This document shows, piece by piece, positions 26,820 through 60,670 of a DNA stretch of 64,000 nucleotides. Under the pieces are notes generated by a model that saw only the letters and a program-made list of their open reading frames with translations, ran no database searches and was not told the origin of the DNA. A program made the position numbers and the translations under genes. Source of the DNA: Escherichia phage C6; sequence record MW679410.1; one strand, written 5' to 3'. Position 1 is the first letter of the stretch. Each line of letters starts with the position of its first letter.

Positions 26820-27119
26820 TTAGAAAGAACCAGAACCTTTAATTGTGTTCTGACGACCTTTATTTTCTAATTCAGAGTGGTCGATTTCATATGCTTGTGC
26901 TACGCCAAAGGCCTTTTTAACTTTAGCTAAAGAACCTTTAGATGTAACAATATTAAAAGTATTACCTTTGGTAAAATCAACCAAATCCACTTGTACACCC
27001 TGTTTACCGAGGCTTGCTACAATAGCATCAACATATTCTTGGTCTAAATTGCCTTGAACTCCAATTTGAAATGCTTTAGGAGCTTTGGCTTCTGTAATAA
27101 ATTCTTGATAAGTTTTCAT
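26820..27119 (-). CDS. Internal-protein-like protein with capsid-targeting sequence
   Basis: 99 aa; N-terminus MKTYQEFITEA matches the T4 internal-protein CTS. Confidence 0.65.
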   Translation of the reverse strand: MKTYQEFITEAKAPKAFQIGVQGNLDQEYVDAIVASLGKQGVQVDLVDFTKGNTFNIVTSKGSLAKVKKAFGVAQAYEIDHSELENKGRQNTIKGSGSF

Positions 27120-27144
27120 TGTTATTCCTTAAGTTGATAGAAGT

Positions 27145-27174
27145 ATTCTATCACGGATTTAATTAAGCGTAAAT
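27145..27174 (-). promoter_or_regulatory. Candidate early promoter
   Basis: Minus strand ATTTAC, 18-nt spacer, TAGAAT. Confidence 0.35.
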
Positions 27175-27579
27175 AGCCTTGCCATAATGTTTGTACCAGG
27201 TAGGACGCTGTGCAATTTTTTCGTCCAAACGGGCCTGAGATATAGCAATAGAAGCTTCGTGTGGAGTATAGTCACCACGGAATTCCTGAGGAATATCACT
27301 AATGTCCTGGACCGTAGTATCCTTGATATTAAAACCACGTTTTAAACATTCCGCTATAAGCTCGATTTGACGTTTACGTAAAAATTCAAGCTTATCATAA
27401 AAGAAAGTAACATGGCCGGTACCAAGGATAAAAGTAGAGCTAATTTTAAAATCACGAACACGTTTACCATTAGCAACATGCTTACGAACTGCACCGAAAA
27501 CACGTGGTAATTCGCGATATTCAGCCATTAAGTGTTGGTCGGCCAATTCAGATACTAAGGTAAGGTTAATACGAGTCAT
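27163..27579 (-). CDS. denV: Endonuclease V (pyrimidine-dimer DNA glycosylase) DenV
   Basis: Start trimmed to MTRINL (138 aa); near-identical to recalled T4 DenV. Confidence 0.95.
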
Positions 27580-27639
27580 TTTAGTGTTCTCCATGTTTGT
27601 GTGAGAACACTATATCACAGCTATTGTAAAAGTAAACTG

Positions 27640-27942
27640 TTATTTACCTTTAATTGCTTTAGCTGCTTCGGTAGCCGCTTGCTGAAGGTCATCCATAGAC
27701 ATACCAAACTTAGAAGCAAAGTTATCAATTTTCTTTTCGACAGAATTCAAAGGCTTGGCCTGTTTACCTTCATTAGCGCCCGGGAGAGCGAGAATACGCT
27801 CTTTCTCAATATAAAGGCTTACAAGTTTCTTACGGTCTTTATCTGGCAAATCATGAAATGAATGGGCCTTTTTATTTACGGCGGCTTCTAATTTACCTGC
27901 AGTTACGCGGGCTTCAGTGATAAATTCTTGATAGGTTTTCAT
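27640..27942 (-). CDS. ipII: Internal protein II
   Basis: 100 aa; CTS MKTYQEFITEA; position between denV and ipIII as in T4. Confidence 0.8.
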   Translation of the reverse strand: MKTYQEFITEARVTAGKLEAAVNKKAHSFHDLPDKDRKKLVSLYIEKERILALPGANEGKQAKPLNSVEKKIDNFASKFGMSMDDLQQAATEAAKAIKGK

Positions 27943-27983
27943 ATGTTTCCTTTAAAGGTAAATAGGTCTAAGTATTCGCTTTA

Positions 27984-28580
27984 TTAATTACCACGGGCCG
28001 CATTAGCAACGGCGTAAGCGTACTGGATATTAGCGTCTTTAAACGTACCTTTAGAGGTATCTAGTTCTGCCTTAAAGCCAGCTTTAGTCATAACATCAGC
28101 GAATTCTTTACGGAAAGCCATTGTATCAAGACCTTTCCATGTTGATTTGTGCTTGGCAAATTCAAGACCAGCGAAGTTGACAGCCTTAGCCAATTTATTA
28201 TCAATAGCCCATTTACCTGCTTTAGGTACAAATACCGGGCCTTTCTGTTTAGAGAACAGTTTTAAATTCCAGCGACGAAGGTCACCGTCGGCTTTAATAA
28301 AAGCTGCGTCCAAGTTACTAGCAACAACATCTTGGATATGGCCAAATTTAAGTCCATCAGCTTCAATATTTAGGTCGTTACGCCAGCGAAGTCCTTCCCA
28401 GGCGAAAGCTTTAAAGTCGGAAGCCTTTGTAGCTAAATACCGTTCAATAGGAGCTGTTTTAGCGTCAAAACCGTTTCCTGGGTTGTCAACGCCGTTTCCT
28501 CGGTAAGTCCACTCATCTTTATTAATGCCTTGGACCTTTCCTACAGAAGCTTCGGCGATAAATTCTTTATACGTTTTCAT
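27984..28580 (-). CDS. ipIII: Internal protein III
   Basis: 198 aa; CTS MKTYKEFIAEA; matches recalled T4 IPIII length and sequence blocks. Confidence 0.8.
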   Translation of the reverse strand: MKTYKEFIAEASVGKVQGINKDEWTYRGNGVDNPGNGFDAKTAPIERYLATKASDFKAFAWEGLRWRNDLNIEADGLKFGHIQDVVASNLDAAFIKADGDLRRWNLKLFSKQKGPVFVPKAGKWAIDNKLAKAVNFAGLEFAKHKSTWKGLDTMAFRKEFADVMTKAGFKAELDTSKGTFKDANIQYAYAVANAARGN

Positions 28581-33907: not shown

Positions 33908-34117
33908 TTAGCAAGACATAGAGGATGTAAACCAGAAACCTTCACCTTCTGGAATACCGTAATCATCACGGACCCATTCGTAATCATCATATTCCGGACT
34001 AGAAGCTGGAATATATTCTTCGCCACCAGCGTGGAAGTGCTGACCTGTTTCGTCAGCCACGGACTGGCCTTTACGTACTAATTCGCGGATTTGTTTTTCA
34101 ATTTCATCAATAGTCAT
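33908..34117 (-). CDS. C-terminal W-x-S-S-C-tail family, member B
   Basis: Start trimmed to MTIDEIEK (SD AAGGAAA); ends GFWFTSSMSC-stop. Confidence 0.5.
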   Translation of the reverse strand: MTIDEIEKQIRELVRKGQSVADETGQHFHAGGEEYIPASSPEYDDYEWVRDDYGIPEGEGFWFTSSMSC

Positions 34118-34127
34118 TTTTATTTCC

Positions 34128-36512: not shown

Positions 36513-36785
36513 TTATTTCATTTTTGCTAGGCAGATTTCATTGGCTTCCCATTGAGCTTGCTTAATAATAGCTTTGGATACAGGAGCCCTTTGGCCATAA
36601 GTTTTTGACGTTGAGAGAACAATACATTTGTTTGCTTCATTATGCCAGCCCCATGATTTTTCGCCATGGGTACCTTTAACTACAGCTGACACCTCAACAG
36701 AGCAACCACCATCAGAAATCTTGGTTTCGACAATCCATTCATTTCTCTCGGCTGCTTCAAGTTCTAATCTAGTTTTTTTCTTCAT
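36513..36785 (-). CDS. Hypothetical protein
   Basis: 90 aa. Confidence 0.5.
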   Translation of the reverse strand: MKKKTRLELEAAERNEWIVETKISDGGCSVEVSAVVKGTHGEKSWGWHNEANKCIVLSTSKTYGQRAPVSKAIIKQAQWEANEICLAKMK

Positions 36786-36969
36786 ACATGGCAGCCCAAT
36801 CAGTTTTTGCCAAGTTGAAAGTAAGAGCTTTCTCTAATTCTTTGGCAGCTTTTTGTTGTTCAGGTGTTAATGAATTATACAACTCTTGCATTTCTTTATC
36901 TTCGATATTCATTATGTTCTCCTCAAATTACGGGCTCATAATATCTTAATCATGAGCCCATGTAAACTT

Positions 36970-37233: not shown

Positions 37234-37268
37234 TTTACTCTCCTTCACTCTGTTGTTTTGATAGGTCT

Positions 37269-37297
37269 ATAGTATCATGTTTAAAGTAGGTGTAAAC
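37269..37297 (-). promoter_or_regulatory. T4 early-type promoter
   Basis: Minus strand GTTTAC, 17-nt spacer, TGATACTAT. Confidence 0.6.
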
Positions 37298-37356
37298 AAC
37301 TTTGTGAAATTATTTTTAGTCTAAACCCCCAAAAAGGAGACCGAAGTCTCCTTTCA

Positions 37357-37974
37357 TTATTTACGGGTCTTTTCGAACTGAGCGGCGTCACCAGCAAGGC
37401 GGCGTGCTTGACGAAGTTTGTTGTCGATTTCTTCGTGCATAGGCTGGGTATACTTAAGGCCTTCAACCGTCAGATAGAGACGATAAAGGTCTGGGGTATC
37501 CAGGTTGTTAATGTGCTGTCCGTTACGAAGAGCATTGAACTCTCGAACGAGTTGTTTAGTTTCAGATTCGATTTCCGAAACCAAAGAAGCCAGTTGATTA
37601 TATTTTTTAACTATAGTGCTGGTGTCAAACTTGATTTTAGGTTTAGGAGCTTCTTTTACCGGTTCGGCTTTAGGCGTTGGTTTCGGCGCTGCAACTTTGG
37701 TCTGGGCCACAGGTTTAGCAACAGGAGCTTTAGCTGGTTTAGCAGGCTTAGTAGCGCCGCCAGCTACGATATCTTTAAAAGCTTTGGAAGCTTTGTAATA
37801 TTCTTTCTGGTTACTAGTATCAAAACCATACATATCATAAACGTTTTTAAAGAACTCAGTACTAGTTTTAGCCCCAGAAATTTTATCATAAGCGGCTTGC
37901 CACATATCTTTAGTCATGCGCACGCCGGCTTCAGTCAGAATGTTTTCGTTCAAAAATTCATTGTAAGTTTTCAT
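37357..37974 (-). CDS. CTS-bearing internal-protein-like protein with Pro/Ala/Lys-rich linker
   Basis: 205 aa; N-terminus MKTYNEFLNEN; low-complexity KPAKPAKAPVAKPVAQTKVAAPKPTPKAEPVKEAPKPK segment. Confidence 0.6.
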   Translation of the reverse strand: MKTYNEFLNENILTEAGVRMTKDMWQAAYDKISGAKTSTEFFKNVYDMYGFDTSNQKEYYKASKAFKDIVAGGATKPAKPAKAPVAKPVAQTKVAAPKPTPKAEPVKEAPKPKIKFDTSTIVKKYNQLASLVSEIESETKQLVREFNALRNGQHINNLDTPDLYRLYLTVEGLKYTQPMHEEIDNKLRQARRLAGDAAQFEKTRK

Positions 37975-39998: not shown

Positions 39999-40184
39999 TT
40001 ACTCACCTTTAGAGATTTTATCCATAACAAAAGAGATTGAACCAATTAAAAATGCCACTACTAAAGAGATTATATTCTCGGAAGTTGAAAGCATATCGAG
40101 CATGAATCCTGCAAACATACTAAAGCCAAAAGCAGTAACGGCGGCCAGTGCAGTAACATTTCTAATTAATTCACAACGTTTCAT
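39999..40184 (-). CDS. Small membrane protein (start trimmed to MKRCE)
   Basis: SD GGAGAA; two hydrophobic helices. Confidence 0.45.
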   Translation of the reverse strand: MKRCELIRNVTALAAVTAFGFSMFAGFMLDMLSTSENIISLVVAFLIGSISFVMDKISKGE

Positions 40185-40220
40185 TTTATTCTCCAATCAC
40201 TCATTTGTTTTGATAGGGCT

Positions 40221-40250
40221 ATAGTACCATCACTAGAGCCCGTTGTAAAC
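40221..40250 (-). promoter_or_regulatory. T4 early-type promoter with covarying dyad
   Basis: Minus strand GTTTAC, 18-nt spacer, TACTAT; dyad GGGCTCTAGT/ACTATAGCCC in the same position as the AGGTCTATAG dyads. Confidence 0.5.
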
Positions 40251-40252
40251 AA

Positions 40253-40525
40253 TTATTTTAAATAAATTGCATACTTTTTATAACCAGCCGTTTCGTGACG
40301 CAGCCCTTTTTCATTAGCAAAACGTTCAATATTGTTAATTTGATTCCGGTCAAGCTCTGAAGTATCAAAAACAAAAAAATTTCGCTTATTGCCTAAAGTT
40401 ACGTGATTAGTCAAATCAATGTTATAGAGATGATTTATATCATCAATCATAGTCTTAACAGATTTGTTAATTTTTACTTCCTCATTAAGAATAGATTCAG
40501 AGATAAATTCTTGATAAGTTTTCAT
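40253..40525 (-). CDS. CTS-bearing internal-protein-like protein (ipI-locus position)
   Basis: 90 aa; N-terminus MKTYQEFISES. Confidence 0.6.
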   Translation of the reverse strand: MKTYQEFISESILNEEVKINKSVKTMIDDINHLYNIDLTNHVTLGNKRNFFVFDTSELDRNQINNIERFANEKGLRHETAGYKKYAIYLK

Positions 40526-40526
40526 T

Positions 40527-40752
40527 TTATTCTACGCCAGCGGCTTTCAAAAGTTTTTTAAGATTGGCCGTGCCTTGAGCAGAAAATGTGACCTTGCCGT
40601 CTTTTTCGCCGATACTCCCGGTCAATTTAGCAAGTTTATCACTAGGGATTTTTTTAAAATCAGCCAATGTACCGTCAAAGGTTTTTGTAACAACTGGCAG
40701 TTGGTCTTCGTGTTTTTTTAGCTTCGGTAATAAATTCTTGATAAGTTTTCAT
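40527..40752 (-). pseudogene. Frameshifted CTS-bearing gene (A7/T7 homopolymer)
   Basis: ATG-MKTYQEFITEAKK then stop after 25 codons; removing one base of the 7-nt homopolymer near 40713-40719 restores a 74-aa ORF ending at 40527; no intact ORF in the track. Confidence 0.5.
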
Positions 40753-40789
40753 TTTGATTTCCGTTTGGTTAGTTTGTTTTGATAGGTCT

Positions 40790-40818
40790 ATAGTATCATG
40801 CCTATAGACCTTGTAAAC
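40790..40818 (-). promoter_or_regulatory. T4 early-type promoter with 10-bp dyad
   Basis: Identical 45-bp block to the one at 31777-31820. Confidence 0.6.
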
Positions 40819-40825
40819 AACTTTT

Positions 40826-41503
<678 letters not shown>

Positions 41504-41511
<8 letters not shown>

Positions 41512-42265
41512 TTTTATTTCCTAATAATTTATCAATAGTAGTGTATAGTTCAGAAAGAGTGCCGTTATTTTCAACAACAACGTCACCAGGTAAAATTGGT
41601 AGACCCGCTTCAGTGATGTGCGAGTCTTGTACTTGACCGGTTTCAGAGCGAACCACATGAATAATCGTAGCACCCATCGCTCTGAGCGAATCAATTTCGT
41701 GTGTTTGACGAACATCAGGTACGACATAGTATTTCGCATCAGAGTATATTTTATCAAAATAGTCTAAAGCGAACAACTTAACCCAATACATCTTATCAAA
41801 TTGGTTAACAATAATATCAGTCCCAAGGGTCTGCATGAGACGACGTACTGACCAATTGTTATTTTTATTTATTACTTCAAACAGTTGGTCTTTTGTTTCT
41901 TCAGACAGATACTGGACTGGGGTAAGACCATAATGATATGCGGTACGAACATCCATTCCTGGAATAGGAAGGATATTATTCAGTTTGACAATAGCATTTT
42001 CAAAGATATCAATCACATCATATGGTTTTAAAGGAAGGATTTCTTCACGGTCGTAACCTATACCTTCAAAACAGTTAAAATCGAGTTTAGGCATATAACT
42101 ACGGTCGAATACAGGGTCATCAGAGATGTATTCATAAGCTTCAGCCAGATACTTTTTAATAGGACCTGCGAGCTGAAATTTTACCGAATCCATATTTTCG
42201 ATTACATAGTTAGCAACGGTATCCTTACCGCTACGTTTGATTCCTACAATTGATATTAGTTTCAT
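41504..42265 (-). CDS. 1: Deoxynucleoside monophosphate kinase, gene 1
   Basis: 253 aa; P-loop GIKRSGKDT; blocks matching recalled T4 gp1 (WSVRRLMQ.LGTD.IVN.FD.MYWVKLFALDY, ATIIHVVR). Confidence 0.9.
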
Positions 42266-42855: not shown

Positions 42856-43603
42856 AGGATTCCTATATTGCTTAAGTCCCAGACAGTGTATAATGGTCCT
42901 AGGTCTGTTCCATTCAATAACTGGCTGGGATAATAGATTATTTTATAAATTCACGTAGTCTTACTGGTGTCATAAAAGGCCATTTGGCTATAGTTGGTTT
43001 TATCCAGTATCTTTCGTGACATGTAGCTTTAAATGCCCGAACCATATCTTTGGCCTCTTCTATAGTATCCACACCAAATTGTTCACAAGTTTCCTTTCTG
43101 GCTTTATCCCATCTCCTTTTAGAAAGCTCTGATTGGAGTTCTTTATTGGCAAAATGGCCATTATTCCTATTATGAGTGGTTCCTTTTGTAGGACTCCATC
43201 CTCGTCCCTTTACAAATCCTTCAGGAATCGGTTCACCCGGAAACAGCTTAATACACTTCTTGCCATTATTATAATAAACCTTTCCTGTTTGGGTTGCCGT
43301 GATATTCTCAGAGTGCTTACGTTTAAGCCAGCCGTAAAGCTTATTATAACGACGAGGGCCTTGAGTCATTGTCATAGCTGCAAAAGTTAGACCAGGATGT
43401 CCTGGATGCATTTTAACTAATAGTTGATGTGCTAAATAATGTTCTTCAGGAGTTAAATCAACTAAGTTTGTAGATTCATCACCTCCACCCATACATCTAG
43501 GTAAAATATGATGAGATTCGGTATAACAGGATAGTGCTCGTCCTTGAGCACGTGTAATTAATGAAGAATATATTTTCTGGTAATTCATTATGCATTCTTC
43601 CAA
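42856..43603 (-). mobile_element. Free-standing HNH homing-endonuclease insertion between genes 3 and 2
   Basis: Genes 3 and 2 are adjacent in T4 as I recall; here an HNH ORF lies between them. Confidence 0.55.
42938..43588 (-). CDS. HNH homing endonuclease
   Basis: Start trimmed to MNYQKIY (ATG overlaps gene 2 stop); HNH motif HHILPRCMGGGDESTNLVDLTPEEHYLAH. Confidence 0.75.
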   Translation of the reverse strand: MNYQKIYSSLITRAQGRALSCYTESHHILPRCMGGGDESTNLVDLTPEEHYLAHQLLVKMHPGHPGLTFAAMTMTQGPRRYNKLYGWLKRKHSENITATQTGKVYYNNGKKCIKLFPGEPIPEGFVKGRGWSPTKGTTHNRNNGHFANKELQSELSKRRWDKARKETCEQFGVDTIEEAKDMVRAFKATCHERYWIKPTIAKWPFMTPVRLREFIK

Positions 43604-59100: not shown

Positions 59101-60645
59101 ATGATTGACAAACTGAGTATTAAAGAACTTCCGTTTGTCGATGGTGTACCCGATGCATCCCAAGAGCGTATCCGTTGGATACGCAATGGAGAATGTATTG
59201 AAGGAGCCACGACTAAATACGGTCACGACGGTAATTTGAATGCCCCTGCTTTAGGAGTACAAACCAACGTAGTTAGATTAGAAGAAAACAGTATAGCTTC
59301 TAAAGACAAAATTAACGAGCTTGTGGATAACGTTAATTTGATTAATGAAGCCCTAGATATTTCTACTGATACGGGTGTTATTCAGCAAATTGAAAAGAAC
59401 CGAGTTGATATACTGGCTGTGGATGAAAAGGCTTCCGAAACTAAACAAGAATTGGGTGACTTAACCGTTAATTTTAATTTTTTAGAAGAAGATGTAGGTT
59501 ATTACGACCCGTCTTTAGATGGCCCATATCTCACCGTCAGAGAAAATATAAATCTTCTTAAATCTGAAATTGGTCATTATGCGAACCAGGATATAAACAG
59601 CCAACCGCTTCCTCCAGGTGAAACTTCTGAAGCCACCGGCATGAAACGTCGCATTATGGATAATACCAGTGCTATTGTCGACCATTCACAACGTATAGAT
59701 ACCCTTGAAAAGAATTACGAAGATTCTGATGTAGGGCAACTTGGGCTTAAGATTAACGAAATTCGTGAAGAACTCGGCCCTCATATCGATACCGTAGGTA
59801 AACAACCAGCGTATACCAGGATTTCTACTCTTGAAACTGCTGCTATAAGCTTTAACGAATCAATAGATTCTATCAAAACCAGTATAGGTTTTAATAAAGG
59901 CCCTATTGATACAAGAGTAACCACGCTGGAAACTAAAACTTCCACTTTAGAAAACACGGTTAATAACGGTTTGGTTCCTAGAGTTACTGCGGTGGAAACC
60001 GCTATCGGTGCGGCAGATACCCCTACTTCTATTAACGGTAGATTAGGTGGCTTACGTACCGATGTTAATGAACTAAAAACTATAGTAGGTGCTAGTTCAT
60101 CCGAAGGGCTTCGTTTCCAGGTTTCCGATATAGACCGTAAAATTGGTGCCGATGTAAGTCCGGCTGCGGGAACAATTAATAAACGTTTGAATGACCTTAC
60201 GACTCAAGGTAATACTTCAGCCTCAACTATTCAGGATTTACAGGCTGAAATTGGTAACAACCAAACGGGTATTAAAGGTTCTATTCTTAAAATTACCAAC
60301 CAAATTGAAGGAACAAACCCTAACGGTAGTACTGTAGAAGAACGAGGGTTAATAAATTCTGTTAAAGGCCTTGAAGCTCAAATGCCTACTAAATTGAGTG
60401 ATGCTCCTGCCGATGGTAAATTATACGGACGTAAAGATGCGGCTTGGGCTGAAATCCTTGGCACTACAGAAATTGATACAGTCAAAGCTTCTTTATTGGT
60501 GGCTGAAGGTAAAATCACTGCACTAGAAACTGAGTTGGCTAAACGCCCTCCTGTTGCTCCTGTGGCTGACGGACTTCCGTATGTTCTGGTTGATAACGCA
60601 TGGGTACTATTGTCAGATTTTGTGACTTTAAACCCAGCACCATAA
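59101..60645 (+). CDS. wac: Fibritin (whisker) Wac
   Basis: 514 aa; long coiled-coil heptads; C-terminal foldon-like GLPYVLVDNAWVLLSDF. Confidence 0.9.
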   Translation: MIDKLSIKELPFVDGVPDASQERIRWIRNGECIEGATTKYGHDGNLNAPALGVQTNVVRLEENSIASKDKINELVDNVNLINEALDISTDTGVIQQIEKNRVDILAVDEKASETKQELGDLTVNFNFLEEDVGYYDPSLDGPYLTVRENINLLKSEIGHYANQDINSQPLPPGETSEATGMKRRIMDNTSAIVDHSQRIDTLEKNYEDSDVGQLGLKINEIREELGPHIDTVGKQPAYTRISTLETAAISFNESIDSIKTSIGFNKGPIDTRVTTLETKTSTLENTVNNGLVPRVTAVETAIGAADTPTSINGRLGGLRTDVNELKTIVGASSSEGLRFQVSDIDRKIGADVSPAAGTINKRLNDLTTQGNTSASTIQDLQAEIGNNQTGIKGSILKITNQIEGTNPNGSTVEERGLINSVKGLEAQMPTKLSDAPADGKLYGRKDAAWAEILGTTEIDTVKASLLVAEGKITALETELAKRPPVAPVADGLPYVLVDNAWVLLSDFVTLNPAP

Positions 60646-60646
60646 T

Positions 60647-60670
60647 AAAAGGGCTTCGGCCCTTTTTTGC
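60647..60670 (+). terminator. Rho-independent terminator after wac
   Basis: AAGGGC-TTCG-GCCCTT followed by TTTTTT. Confidence 0.7.

What the first reader, a model, noticed from the sequence alone, without database searches (positions are those of the whole stretch)
40527..40752. CTS gene at the ipI position is interrupted by a frameshift in a 7-nt homopolymer
The ORF starts ATG-MKTYQEFITEAKK and stops after 25 codons; deleting one base of the A7 run (mRNA sense, about 40713-40719) restores a 74-aa CTS protein that ends 1 nt before the next CTS gene. This is either a recent inactivation, a homopolymer sequencing error, or slippage-dependent (phase-variable) expression of an injected protein.
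Basis: seen in the sequence. Interest (0 to 1): 0.5.

Follow-up and report, generated by a model that had tools for sequence, protein, structure and literature searches.

The report
Extra A breaks phage ip8 gene
A small, already known gene for an injected head protein (Ip8) of a T4-like coliphage is broken by one extra A in a run of six; this is an ordinary sequencing miscall or a recent slippage mutation, not a special expression mechanism.

Summary
On the minus strand an ORF starts at 40752 (MKTYQEFITE...) and meets an A7 run at 40713-40719. It stops after 25 codons. Removing one A gives a 74-aa protein ending at 40527, one base before the next gene.

The gene is Ip8, a polymorphic internal head protein first named in phage RB15. 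It sits in the 57B-trna.4 (ipI) locus of a Dhakavirus, probably Escherichia phage C6.

All 25 relatives' loci inspected at DNA level (fewer distinct phages) have A6 or AAAAGA at this site. In 106 of 107 phage records the gene aligns in one piece. The A7 allele was found nowhere else.

A second A6-to-A7 frameshift breaks another conserved small gene at 36773-36779.

Nothing suggests programmed recoding. The out-of-frame arrangement is not conserved and no RNA structure follows the run. Published reporter assays show E. coli RNA polymerase and ribosomes do not slip detectably on seven A.

My estimates:
- Homopolymer miscall in the assembly: about 0.52.
- Real, recent and reversible slippage mutation of the kind recently called a phage contingency locus: about 0.40.

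Only the reads or resequencing can decide. Interest is low.

The parts
40675..40752 (-). Truncated ORF as it stands: 25 codons (MKTYQEFITEAKKTRRPTASCYKNL) plus TGA
40723..40752 (-). Capsid targeting sequence MKTYQEFITE, ending in the I-x-E motif after which the T4 prohead protease cuts (the cleavage rule is from established T4 knowledge)
   Evidence: Sequence. The same N-terminus occurs on four other ORFs of the window. The CTS concept is described in PMC3012670.
40713..40719 (-). A7 run (T7 on the plus strand) that carries the extra base; it is A6 or AAAAGA in all relatives inspected
40527..40712 (-). +1-frame continuation encoding Ip8 residues 14-74 and TAA. It has no internal stop and is 97-99% identical to the closest relatives. 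Its last 46 codons are identical to GenBank protein QVW28295.1 of Escherichia phage C6.
40649..40655 (-). Second A run of ip8 (AAA AAA ATC, A7, in frame here). This is the site of independent A7-to-A6 frameshifts in phage ZCEC14 and in a Logan contig.
40554..40559 (-). Third A run of ip8 (A6, in frame)
40253..40525 (-). ip9-like CTS gene (90 aa, PHROG 7673). It starts 1 nt after the restored ip8 stop, so it is probably translationally coupled to ip8 (inference).
40790..40817 (-). Sigma-70/T4-early-like promoter (TTTACA-16-TACTAT, with TG) inside a repeated cassette at 40774-40833. A second copy lies at 40205-40264, downstream of ip9.
36773..36779 (-). Second A6-to-A7 frameshift of the window. 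It breaks a conserved 132-aa gene (PHROG 8232, 36516-36912).

Best explanation
The locus is an ordinary ip8 gene: a small basic internal head protein with a capsid targeting sequence, packaged in the head and injected with the DNA. Its reading frame is broken only by a one-base difference in homopolymer length (A7 instead of the A6 found in its subclade). It is not a programmed recoding site.

I think the extra A most likely exists only in the deposited assembly, as a homopolymer-length miscall. In that case the phage makes a normal 74-aa Ip8, cut after ITE to a 64-aa mature protein.

Shown here: the identity of the gene, the uniqueness of A7, and the second identical event. Inferred: that the cause is technical.
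For: - The corrected product is a full-length member of the Ip8 family.
- All 25 relatives' loci inspected at DNA level (several are copies of the same phage genome) have A6 or AAAAGA at this site.
- In 106 of 107 phage records the gene aligns in one piece.
- The A7 allele has no true match in IMG/VR, JGI metagenomes or GTDB genomes. The single metagenome hit is a chance match inside an IS66 gene.
- The downstream 61 codons have no stop. They differ from SHP1 by seven synonymous changes and one conservative change, so the gene was under selection until essentially now.
- A second conserved small gene in the same 64 kb is broken by the same A6-to-A7 change. Of 104 IME341 proteins with a match in the window, only these two are split across frames.
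- Each such event occurs in roughly 1-2% of records per gene. Two independent fixations in one genome are therefore unlikely, whereas a platform with homopolymer errors produces several per genome.
- The deposited annotation of phage C6 calls the 46-aa downstream fragment as a gene. The submitters therefore did not curate the site.
Against: - No reads are available and the sequencing platform is unknown. No paper on phage C6 was found.
- The assembly otherwise looks clean. About 30 of the 33 comparable runs of six or more have the same length as in IME341.
- Single-base differences in intergenic runs go in both directions, as natural divergence of about 4-5% would give.
- Both broken genes are small accessory genes, as expected if selection had filtered real mutations.
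- A6 runs are genuine frameshift hot spots in T-even phages.
Confidence: 0.52

Rival explanations
1. The extra A is real. Replication slippage of the phage DNA polymerase on the A6 run produced a +1 frameshift, giving a recent null (OFF) allele of ip8. The phage would make only a 25-aa CTS peptide, and probably less Ip9 because translational coupling is lost. Because A6/A7 runs in T-even phages mutate back and forth at high frequency, the allele would be reversible in a population. In the terms of Gomez, Barrick and Waters (2025) it would be a putative contingency locus caught in its OFF state.
For: - T2 and T4 runs of six or more bases vary at a mean frequency of 2.9e-4 in populations. An A6+1 insertion in T4 rIIA reverts about 10,000 times more often than a point mutation (bioRxiv 10.1101/2025.10.21.683753).
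- ip8 carries three such runs in 225 nt. Other ip8 alleles are broken at run 2 in phage ZCEC14 and in a Logan contig.
- Genome-wide, Lys-Lys is written AAAAAA in only 20 of 70 cases, but in 3 of 3 in ip8.
- Both broken genes are dispensable-looking accessory genes.
- Real single-base run-length differences from relatives exist in intergenic spacers.
- The ipI locus gains and loses genes freely among relatives.
Against: - Ip8 is intact in about 98% of records and evolves under purifying selection.
- Two independent OFF alleles fixed in one isolate are improbable at the measured frequencies.
- The A6 of run 1 is a derived feature of one Dhakavirus subclade (AAAAGA, Lys-Arg, elsewhere). The tract has therefore not been maintained as a switch.
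- No second sequence carries A7.
Confidence: 0.4
2. Programmed expression-level slippage. Full-length Ip8 would be made from the A7 template by RNA polymerase skipping an A or by a +1 ribosomal frameshift at AAA-AAA-A, setting a low regulated dose of the injected protein.
For: The last Lys-tRNA could re-pair perfectly one base forward on the A7 run, and the downstream frame is fully open. Low-level non-programmed frameshift suppression of about 1% exists in E. coli (PMC10861913).
Against: - The out-of-frame arrangement is not conserved in any relative.
- E. coli RNA polymerase, which transcribes T4-type genes (established knowledge), showed no detectable slippage on fewer than eight A and no deletion slippage on poly(A) (PMC6260861).
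- Ribosome sliding needs about A11 (PMC4363877).
- The 96 nt around and after the run fold no better than shuffles (z = 0.19).
- The required shift is +1, and there is no stop or obviously rare codon in the A site (ACA).
Confidence: 0.04
3. The 25-aa ORF is the intended product: a new short CTS peptide, with the downstream frame a decaying remnant.
For: The ORF keeps the start codon, the promoter-like element and the complete CTS.
Against: The downstream frame is intact and conserved at 97-99% identity with mostly synonymous differences. No relative encodes the 25-aa form.
Confidence: 0.01

Closest known systems
Ip8 of phage RB15 (GenBank Z35082; polymorphic internal proteins of the T-even ipI locus, Repoila et al. 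1994, cited in PMC3012670); PHROG 8765 'internal virion protein'
   Same: - Same position between 57B and trna.4.
- Same CTS N-terminus.
- 85% amino-acid identity over all 74 residues after frame correction.
- Same neighbour, ip9.
   Different: Here the frame is broken by one extra A. Run 1 is AAAAGA (Lys-Arg) in RB15 and A6 or A7 in this subclade.
T4 IPI* (injected inhibitor of the GmrSD type IV restriction enzyme)
   Same: It occupies the same genomic slot and uses the same CTS-based packaging logic. It is likewise a small basic protein that is injected with the DNA. The review PMC3012670 regards the diverse Ip proteins as anti-defence proteins.
   Different: There is no sequence similarity beyond the CTS. 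The AlphaFold model of Ip8 (pLDDT 79.7) has no significant PDB match. The target and function of Ip8 are unknown.
Putative contingency loci of T2/T4 (agt A9, rIIA A6; Gomez, Barrick and Waters, bioRxiv 10.1101/2025.10.21.683753)
   Same: It is a mononucleotide run of six or more inside a non-essential, defence-related gene of a T4-type phage, with a +/-1 length change that switches the gene off.
   Different: Reversibility, population heterogeneity and a fitness trade-off are shown there and untested here. Here even the reality of the extra base is unproven.
Homopolymer-length errors in deposited phage genomes
   Same: It is a single-base over-call in a 6-7-nt A/T run that splits a conserved gene. 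A second case lies in the same assembly, and the fragment is annotated as a separate tiny gene.
   Different: There are only two such sites among about 45 long runs in 64 kb. That is fewer than a strongly error-prone assembly would show.
Programmed transcriptional slippage or ribosomal frameshifting (dnaX, IS elements, prfB, phage tail chaperones)
   Same: There is a slippery A-rich heptamer at the frame junction.
   Different: The arrangement is not conserved, the run is too short for E. coli RNA polymerase, the direction is wrong for A-AAA-AAG-type -1 sites, and there is no stimulator.

Membership tests
T-even polymorphic internal proteins (Ip8 / PHROG 8765) | N-terminal capsid targeting sequence MKTYQEFIxE ending in the I/L-x-E protease motif | tested here: met
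   MKTYQEFITE at 40752-40723. The same motif heads four other ORFs of the window.
T-even polymorphic internal proteins (Ip8 / PHROG 8765) | Location in the variable 57B-trna.4 (ipI) locus | tested here: met
   The window's order is gp1, 57A, 57B/Acb1, ip8, ip9, trna.4. Relatives and RB15 show the same layout.
T-even polymorphic internal proteins (Ip8 / PHROG 8765) | Sequence homology over the whole protein | tested here: met
   Met after removal of one A: PHROG 8765 E 5e-27, and 74-99% identity to 107 records including RB15 Ip8.
T-even polymorphic internal proteins (Ip8 / PHROG 8765) | Uninterrupted reading frame | tested here: not met
   The sequence as given stops after 25 codons.
T-even polymorphic internal proteins (Ip8 / PHROG 8765) | Protein present in the head and injected | not testable with these tools
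   This needs virion proteomics.
Programmed recoding site (transcriptional slippage or ribosomal frameshift) | Out-of-frame arrangement conserved among relatives | tested here: not met
   None of the 25 loci inspected has A7. In 106 of 107 records the gene aligns in one piece.
Programmed recoding site (transcriptional slippage or ribosomal frameshift) | Slippery run long enough for the host machinery | tested here: not met
   The run is A7. E. coli RNA polymerase needs at least eight A and shows no deletion slippage on poly(A) (PMC6260861). Ribosome sliding needs about A11 (PMC4363877).
Programmed recoding site (transcriptional slippage or ribosomal frameshift) | Stimulatory element next to the slip site | tested here: not met
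   Folding of 40630-40725 gives -10.7 kcal/mol, z = 0.19 against shuffles.
Phage contingency locus (Gomez et al. 2025) | Mononucleotide run of six or more inside an ORF | tested here: met
   ip8 has three runs: 40713-40719, 40649-40655 and 40554-40559.
Phage contingency locus (Gomez et al. 2025) | +/-1 length variants at the run among related genomes | tested here: inconclusive
   Run 1 is A7 here against A6 in relatives. Run 2 is A7-to-A6 in ZCEC14 and a Logan contig. None of these can be told from sequencing error.
Phage contingency locus (Gomez et al. 2025) | High, reversible switching within a population, and a fitness trade-off between ON and OFF | not testable with these tools
   This needs deep sequencing of populations and host-range or competition assays.
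Homopolymer sequencing artefact | Length change confined to a long homopolymer, unique to one record, in an otherwise conserved intact frame | tested here: met
Homopolymer sequencing artefact | Further events of the same type in the same assembly | tested here: met
   36773-36779 is A6-to-A7 in a second conserved gene.
Homopolymer sequencing artefact | Reads or an orthogonal method disagree with the consensus | not testable with these tools
   No reads are available and the platform is unknown.

The most novel reading that the evidence does not exclude
The three A runs of ip8 (and the run in the 36516-36912 gene) are real, selected contingency tracts. T4-type phages would then stochastically switch an injected internal protein ON and OFF at the DNA level. 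This would hedge between hosts where Ip8 neutralises a defence and hosts where the injected protein is costly or is itself sensed. The window would have caught a lineage with two such switches OFF.
Probability: 0.07. Interest if true: 0.55.

Novelty: already known. Interest (0 to 1): 0.17.

Why it matters
As it stands this is mainly an annotation and quality issue. The record, probably Escherichia phage C6, should either be corrected to an intact ip8 or carry ip8 and the 36516-36912 gene as pseudogenes, rather than a 46-aa 'hypothetical protein'.

If the extra bases prove real, the locus would be a natural example of the homopolymer ON/OFF variation recently proposed for T2 and T4. It would sit in a gene class (injected internal proteins) thought to counter host restriction. 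That would give a cheap test of whether such tracts matter outside the laboratory.

Tried and rejected
- **Exact searches for the A7 allele.** There were no hits in IMG/VR or GTDB genomes. The one JGI metagenome hit is a chance 21-mer inside an IS66 orf2.
- **Look-ups of exact window proteins, to find another assembly of the same phage.** ip9, the 46-aa fragment and the 47-aa fragment of the second broken gene are not on record. 57B and trna.4 led only to relatives, all with intact genes at the ip8 position where the gene is present.
- **Literature on phage C6.** None was found, so the sequencing platform is unknown. Repoila 1994 is not held.
- **Screen for a systematic over-call bias.** The window has three unique +1 changes against two relatives. 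Intergenic single-base differences go both ways, however, so the screen does not decide.
- **dN/dS on the window's own branch.** There are only three changes, which gives no power.
- **UFV-AREG1 as a possible precedent for a corrected homopolymer error.** An old 101-aa UniRef product departs from Ip8 after residue 49. Its tail is not a shifted frame of ip8, so I rejected it as a precedent.
- **Function of Ip8.** There is no Pfam hit. The AlphaFold model (pLDDT 79.7, beta-alpha-beta-beta-alpha core) has no PDB match below E 0.1.
- **A -1 frameshift reading.** Rejected, because that frame runs into a stop.

Full report
**What the window is.** The window is a T4-type phage of the genus Dhakavirus (the JS98/IME08 group). 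A 22-kb stretch around the finding matches IME341 at 95.6% and IME281 at 92.5%, and the ip locus matches ABTNLsp5, IME08 and IME341 at 95.8%. No record in the phage collection is the same genome.

The genes here run on the minus strand:
- gp1 dNMP kinase (41504-42265)
- 57A (41281-41511)
- 57B (40826-41281; Pfam Acb1)
- the finding
- an ip9-like gene (40253-40525; PHROG 7673)
- trna.4 (39999-40184; PHROG 1692), followed later by tRNA genes

This is the classical ipI position of T-even phages.

**Checking the observation.** The minus strand reads atg aaa act tat caa gaa ttt att acc gaa gct, then seven A (40719-40713), then ca cga aga. The ORF is 25 codons and stops at TGA 40677-40675. Dropping one A gives a 74-aa product that ends at TAA 40529-40527. 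The ATG of the next gene is at 40525, so the spacer is one base.

The needed correction is +1 (or -2) during expression, or loss of one A in the template. The -1 frame is closed.

**What the gene is.** The corrected protein matches PHROG 8765 'internal virion protein' over its whole length (E 5e-27). By tblastn it is found in 107 phage records at 74-99% identity. One of these is the 1994 RB15 entry Z35082, where the gene is named ip8 and sits with ip5, ip9 and ip7 between 57B and trna.4.

The first ten residues, MKTYQEFITE, are the capsid targeting sequence shared by the internal proteins. Four other ORFs of the window begin the same way. The review PMC3012670 describes these proteins as a diverse set of injected defence-countering proteins that share only the CTS, and cites Repoila et al. 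1994.

The number and kind of genes between 57B and trna.4 differ widely among relatives, so the locus is as plastic as described. An AlphaFold model of a 97%-identical homologue is confident for residues 20-74 (mean pLDDT 79.7). It has no significant match among solved structures, and there is no Pfam hit. The molecular function of Ip8 remains unknown.

**Is the frameshift shared?** No.
- I read the site at DNA level in 25 loci from relatives, several of which are copies of the same phage genome. Eighteen have GCTAAAAAACA (A6) and seven have GCTAAAAGACA.
- More distant genera have AAAAGA, AAAATG or AAGGGG. The A6 is therefore itself a recent Arg-to-Lys change in one Dhakavirus subclade.
- All 107 records cover at least 80% of the protein at one place, and 106 do so in a single piece.
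- An exact search for the A7 allele found nothing in IMG/VR or in GTDB genomes. The one hit in JGI metagenomes is a chance 21-mer inside an IS66 gene. The A6 version is present in five IMG/VR contigs.

**Likely source of the window.** A protein search returned a 46-aa 'hypothetical protein [Escherichia phage C6]' (QVW28295.1, on a 169,530-nt contig). It is letter-for-letter the TTG-started ORF 40527-40667 of the window, that is, the downstream fragment of the broken gene. The window is therefore most probably phage C6, and the extra A is in the deposited record. No paper on this phage is held, so the platform is unknown.

**State of the rest of the window.**
- I translated 120 annotated IME341 genes and compared them with the window. 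Of the 104 that find a match, exactly two are split between frames: ip8 and a 132-aa gene at 36516-36912. Two further multi-frame flags, gp9 and gp10, are weak cross-matches between neighbouring genes.
- The second break is again A6 to A7 in the mRNA sense (36773-36779, GAAGAAAAAAACTAG against GAAGAAAAAACTAG). Its corrected product matches PHROG 8232 end to end (E 1e-74) and is intact in SHP1, PSD2002, JS10 and others.
- Among 78 runs of five or more bases that can be compared in the window, IME341 and IME281, the window has three unique length changes. All are +1 A in the mRNA sense: the two frameshifts, plus an A4-to-A5 change in a Shine-Dalgarno spacer at 34117-34121. IME341 has one unique change, in the T tail of a terminator, and IME281 has none.
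- A full list of single-base indels shows that unpaired differences in intergenic spacers go in both directions. There is no clear assembly-wide over-call.
- A scan that adds or removes a base at every long run found no other plausible broken gene. The only coding gap of note is the ip8 site.

**Is it a programmed recoding site?** The evidence says no.
- The out-of-frame arrangement is unique to this sequence.
- T4-type phages use the host RNA polymerase (established knowledge). In a systematic reporter study, E. coli polymerase gave no detectable slippage on fewer than seven T or eight A, and no deletion slippage on poly(A) (PMC6260861).
- Ribosome sliding on poly(A) becomes robust at A11 and is slight at A9-A10 (PMC4363877).
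- The 96 nt around and after the run fold no better than shuffled sequence (z = 0.19).
- Background frameshift suppression of the order of 1% is known in E. coli (PMC10861913). A trace of full-length protein cannot be excluded, but that is leakiness, not a mechanism.

**Artefact or real mutation?** Both fit the local data. The downstream frame is open and differs from SHP1 by seven synonymous changes and one conservative change. The break is therefore either very recent or not there.

For a real mutation:
- A6 runs are the classical frameshift hot spots of T4. A 2025 preprint shows that runs of six or more in T2 and T4 vary at a mean frequency of 2.9e-4 in lysates.
- The same preprint shows that an extra A in the rIIA A6 run reverts about 10,000 times faster than a point mutation, and calls such runs contingency loci.
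- ip8 holds three such runs in 225 nt. Two other ip8 alleles are broken at the second run: phage ZCEC14 and a Logan contig.
- Across the window, Lys-Lys is written AAAAAA in only 20 of 70 cases although AAA makes up 73% of Lys codons. In ip8 it is 3 of 3.

For an artefact:
- Ip8 is intact in about 98% of records and clearly under purifying selection.
- At the measured frequencies, two independent fixations in one isolate are unlikely. A platform with homopolymer errors yields several such breaks per genome.
- The depositors evidently did not inspect the site.

My estimates are artefact 0.52, real reversible null allele 0.40, programmed expression-level slippage 0.04, and other readings the remainder.

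**Consequences if real.** The phage would make a 25-aa peptide that still carries the CTS and the I-T-E cleavage site. Translational coupling to ip9 (stop and start one base apart) would be lost. Both statements are inference.

**Verdict.** This is a known gene (ip8) at a known variable locus, with a one-base homopolymer discrepancy of a well-known kind. The finding is correctly observed but ordinary. Its only wider interest is as a possible natural instance of the recently proposed phage contingency loci, which needs reads or resequencing to establish.

Noticed in passing
window 36516-36912 (run at 36773-36779): A second conserved small gene (132 aa, PHROG 8232, function unknown) is broken by the same A6-to-A7 change. 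It is intact in IME341, IME281, SHP1, PSD2002 and JS10.
   Followed up: yes
window 40826-41281 (-): Gene 57B, annotated 'RNA ligase' in RefSeq relatives, matches Pfam PF23474 Acb1 (anti-CBASS phosphodiesterase) at E 1e-58. An anti-defence gene therefore sits directly upstream of the internal-protein genes.
   Followed up: partly
window 40774-40833, 40205-40264, 37253-37312: A repeated roughly 60-nt cassette holds an early-promoter-like TTTACA-16/17-TACTAT. In the copy read by eye (40774-40833) the -10 element lies in an inverted repeat (ggtctatag...ctatagacc). The cassettes bracket the ip8-ip9 module. They resemble the promoter stem-loop cassettes proposed to mediate module shuffling in T4-type phages (a recollection, not tested here).
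   Followed up: partly
window 42938-43603 (-): A 640-nt insertion relative to IME341 lies between gp3 and gp2. It encodes a 221-aa homing endonuclease (PHROG 655, E 1e-55).
   Followed up: partly
window 26820-28580 and 37498-37974 (-): Three more CTS proteins lie at 26820-27119, 27640-27942 and 27984-28580. A gene with a variant CTS-like start, MKTYNEFLNE (159 aa, PHROG 2280, unknown function), lies at 37498-37974.
   Followed up: no
whole window; 40373-40827: Lys-Lys dipeptides avoid AAAAAA (20 of 70, against about 53% expected from 73% AAA use). Yet five of the window's 48 listed long runs (A/T of six or more, G/C of five or more) fall within 455 nt of the ip8-ip9 locus. By my own hand calculation from the run lists, the Poisson probability is about 2e-5; this is post hoc and largely reflects the Lys-rich proteins.
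   Followed up: partly
window 34117-34121: A window-specific A4-to-A5 change lies in the Shine-Dalgarno-to-ATG spacer of a small gene (taaggaaatAaaaatg).
   Followed up: partly
window 60644-60668: An intrinsic terminator (AAAAGGGCTTCGGCCCTTTTTT) lies between wac and gp13, followed by a late-promoter-like TATAAATA. Its T tail is T6 here and T7 in IME341.
   Followed up: partly
L002 (IME08, NC_014260.1) 1277-1501: RefSeq IME08 has an intact 74-aa ip8 that is not annotated.
   Followed up: partly
L021 (ZCEC14, OP168898.1) and L052 (Logan ERR12726535): Two other ip8 alleles are frameshifted, both by A7-to-A6 in the second A run. In ZCEC14 the CTS is also altered (MKTSKEF) and an antisense ORF is annotated instead.
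   Followed up: partly
P0018 (UniRef, phage UFV-AREG1): An older 101-aa product departs from Ip8 after residue 49 into unrelated sequence. The current record (KX009778.4 / NC_031030.2) encodes an intact 74-aa Ip8. This points to a past revision of this locus in that record.
   Followed up: no
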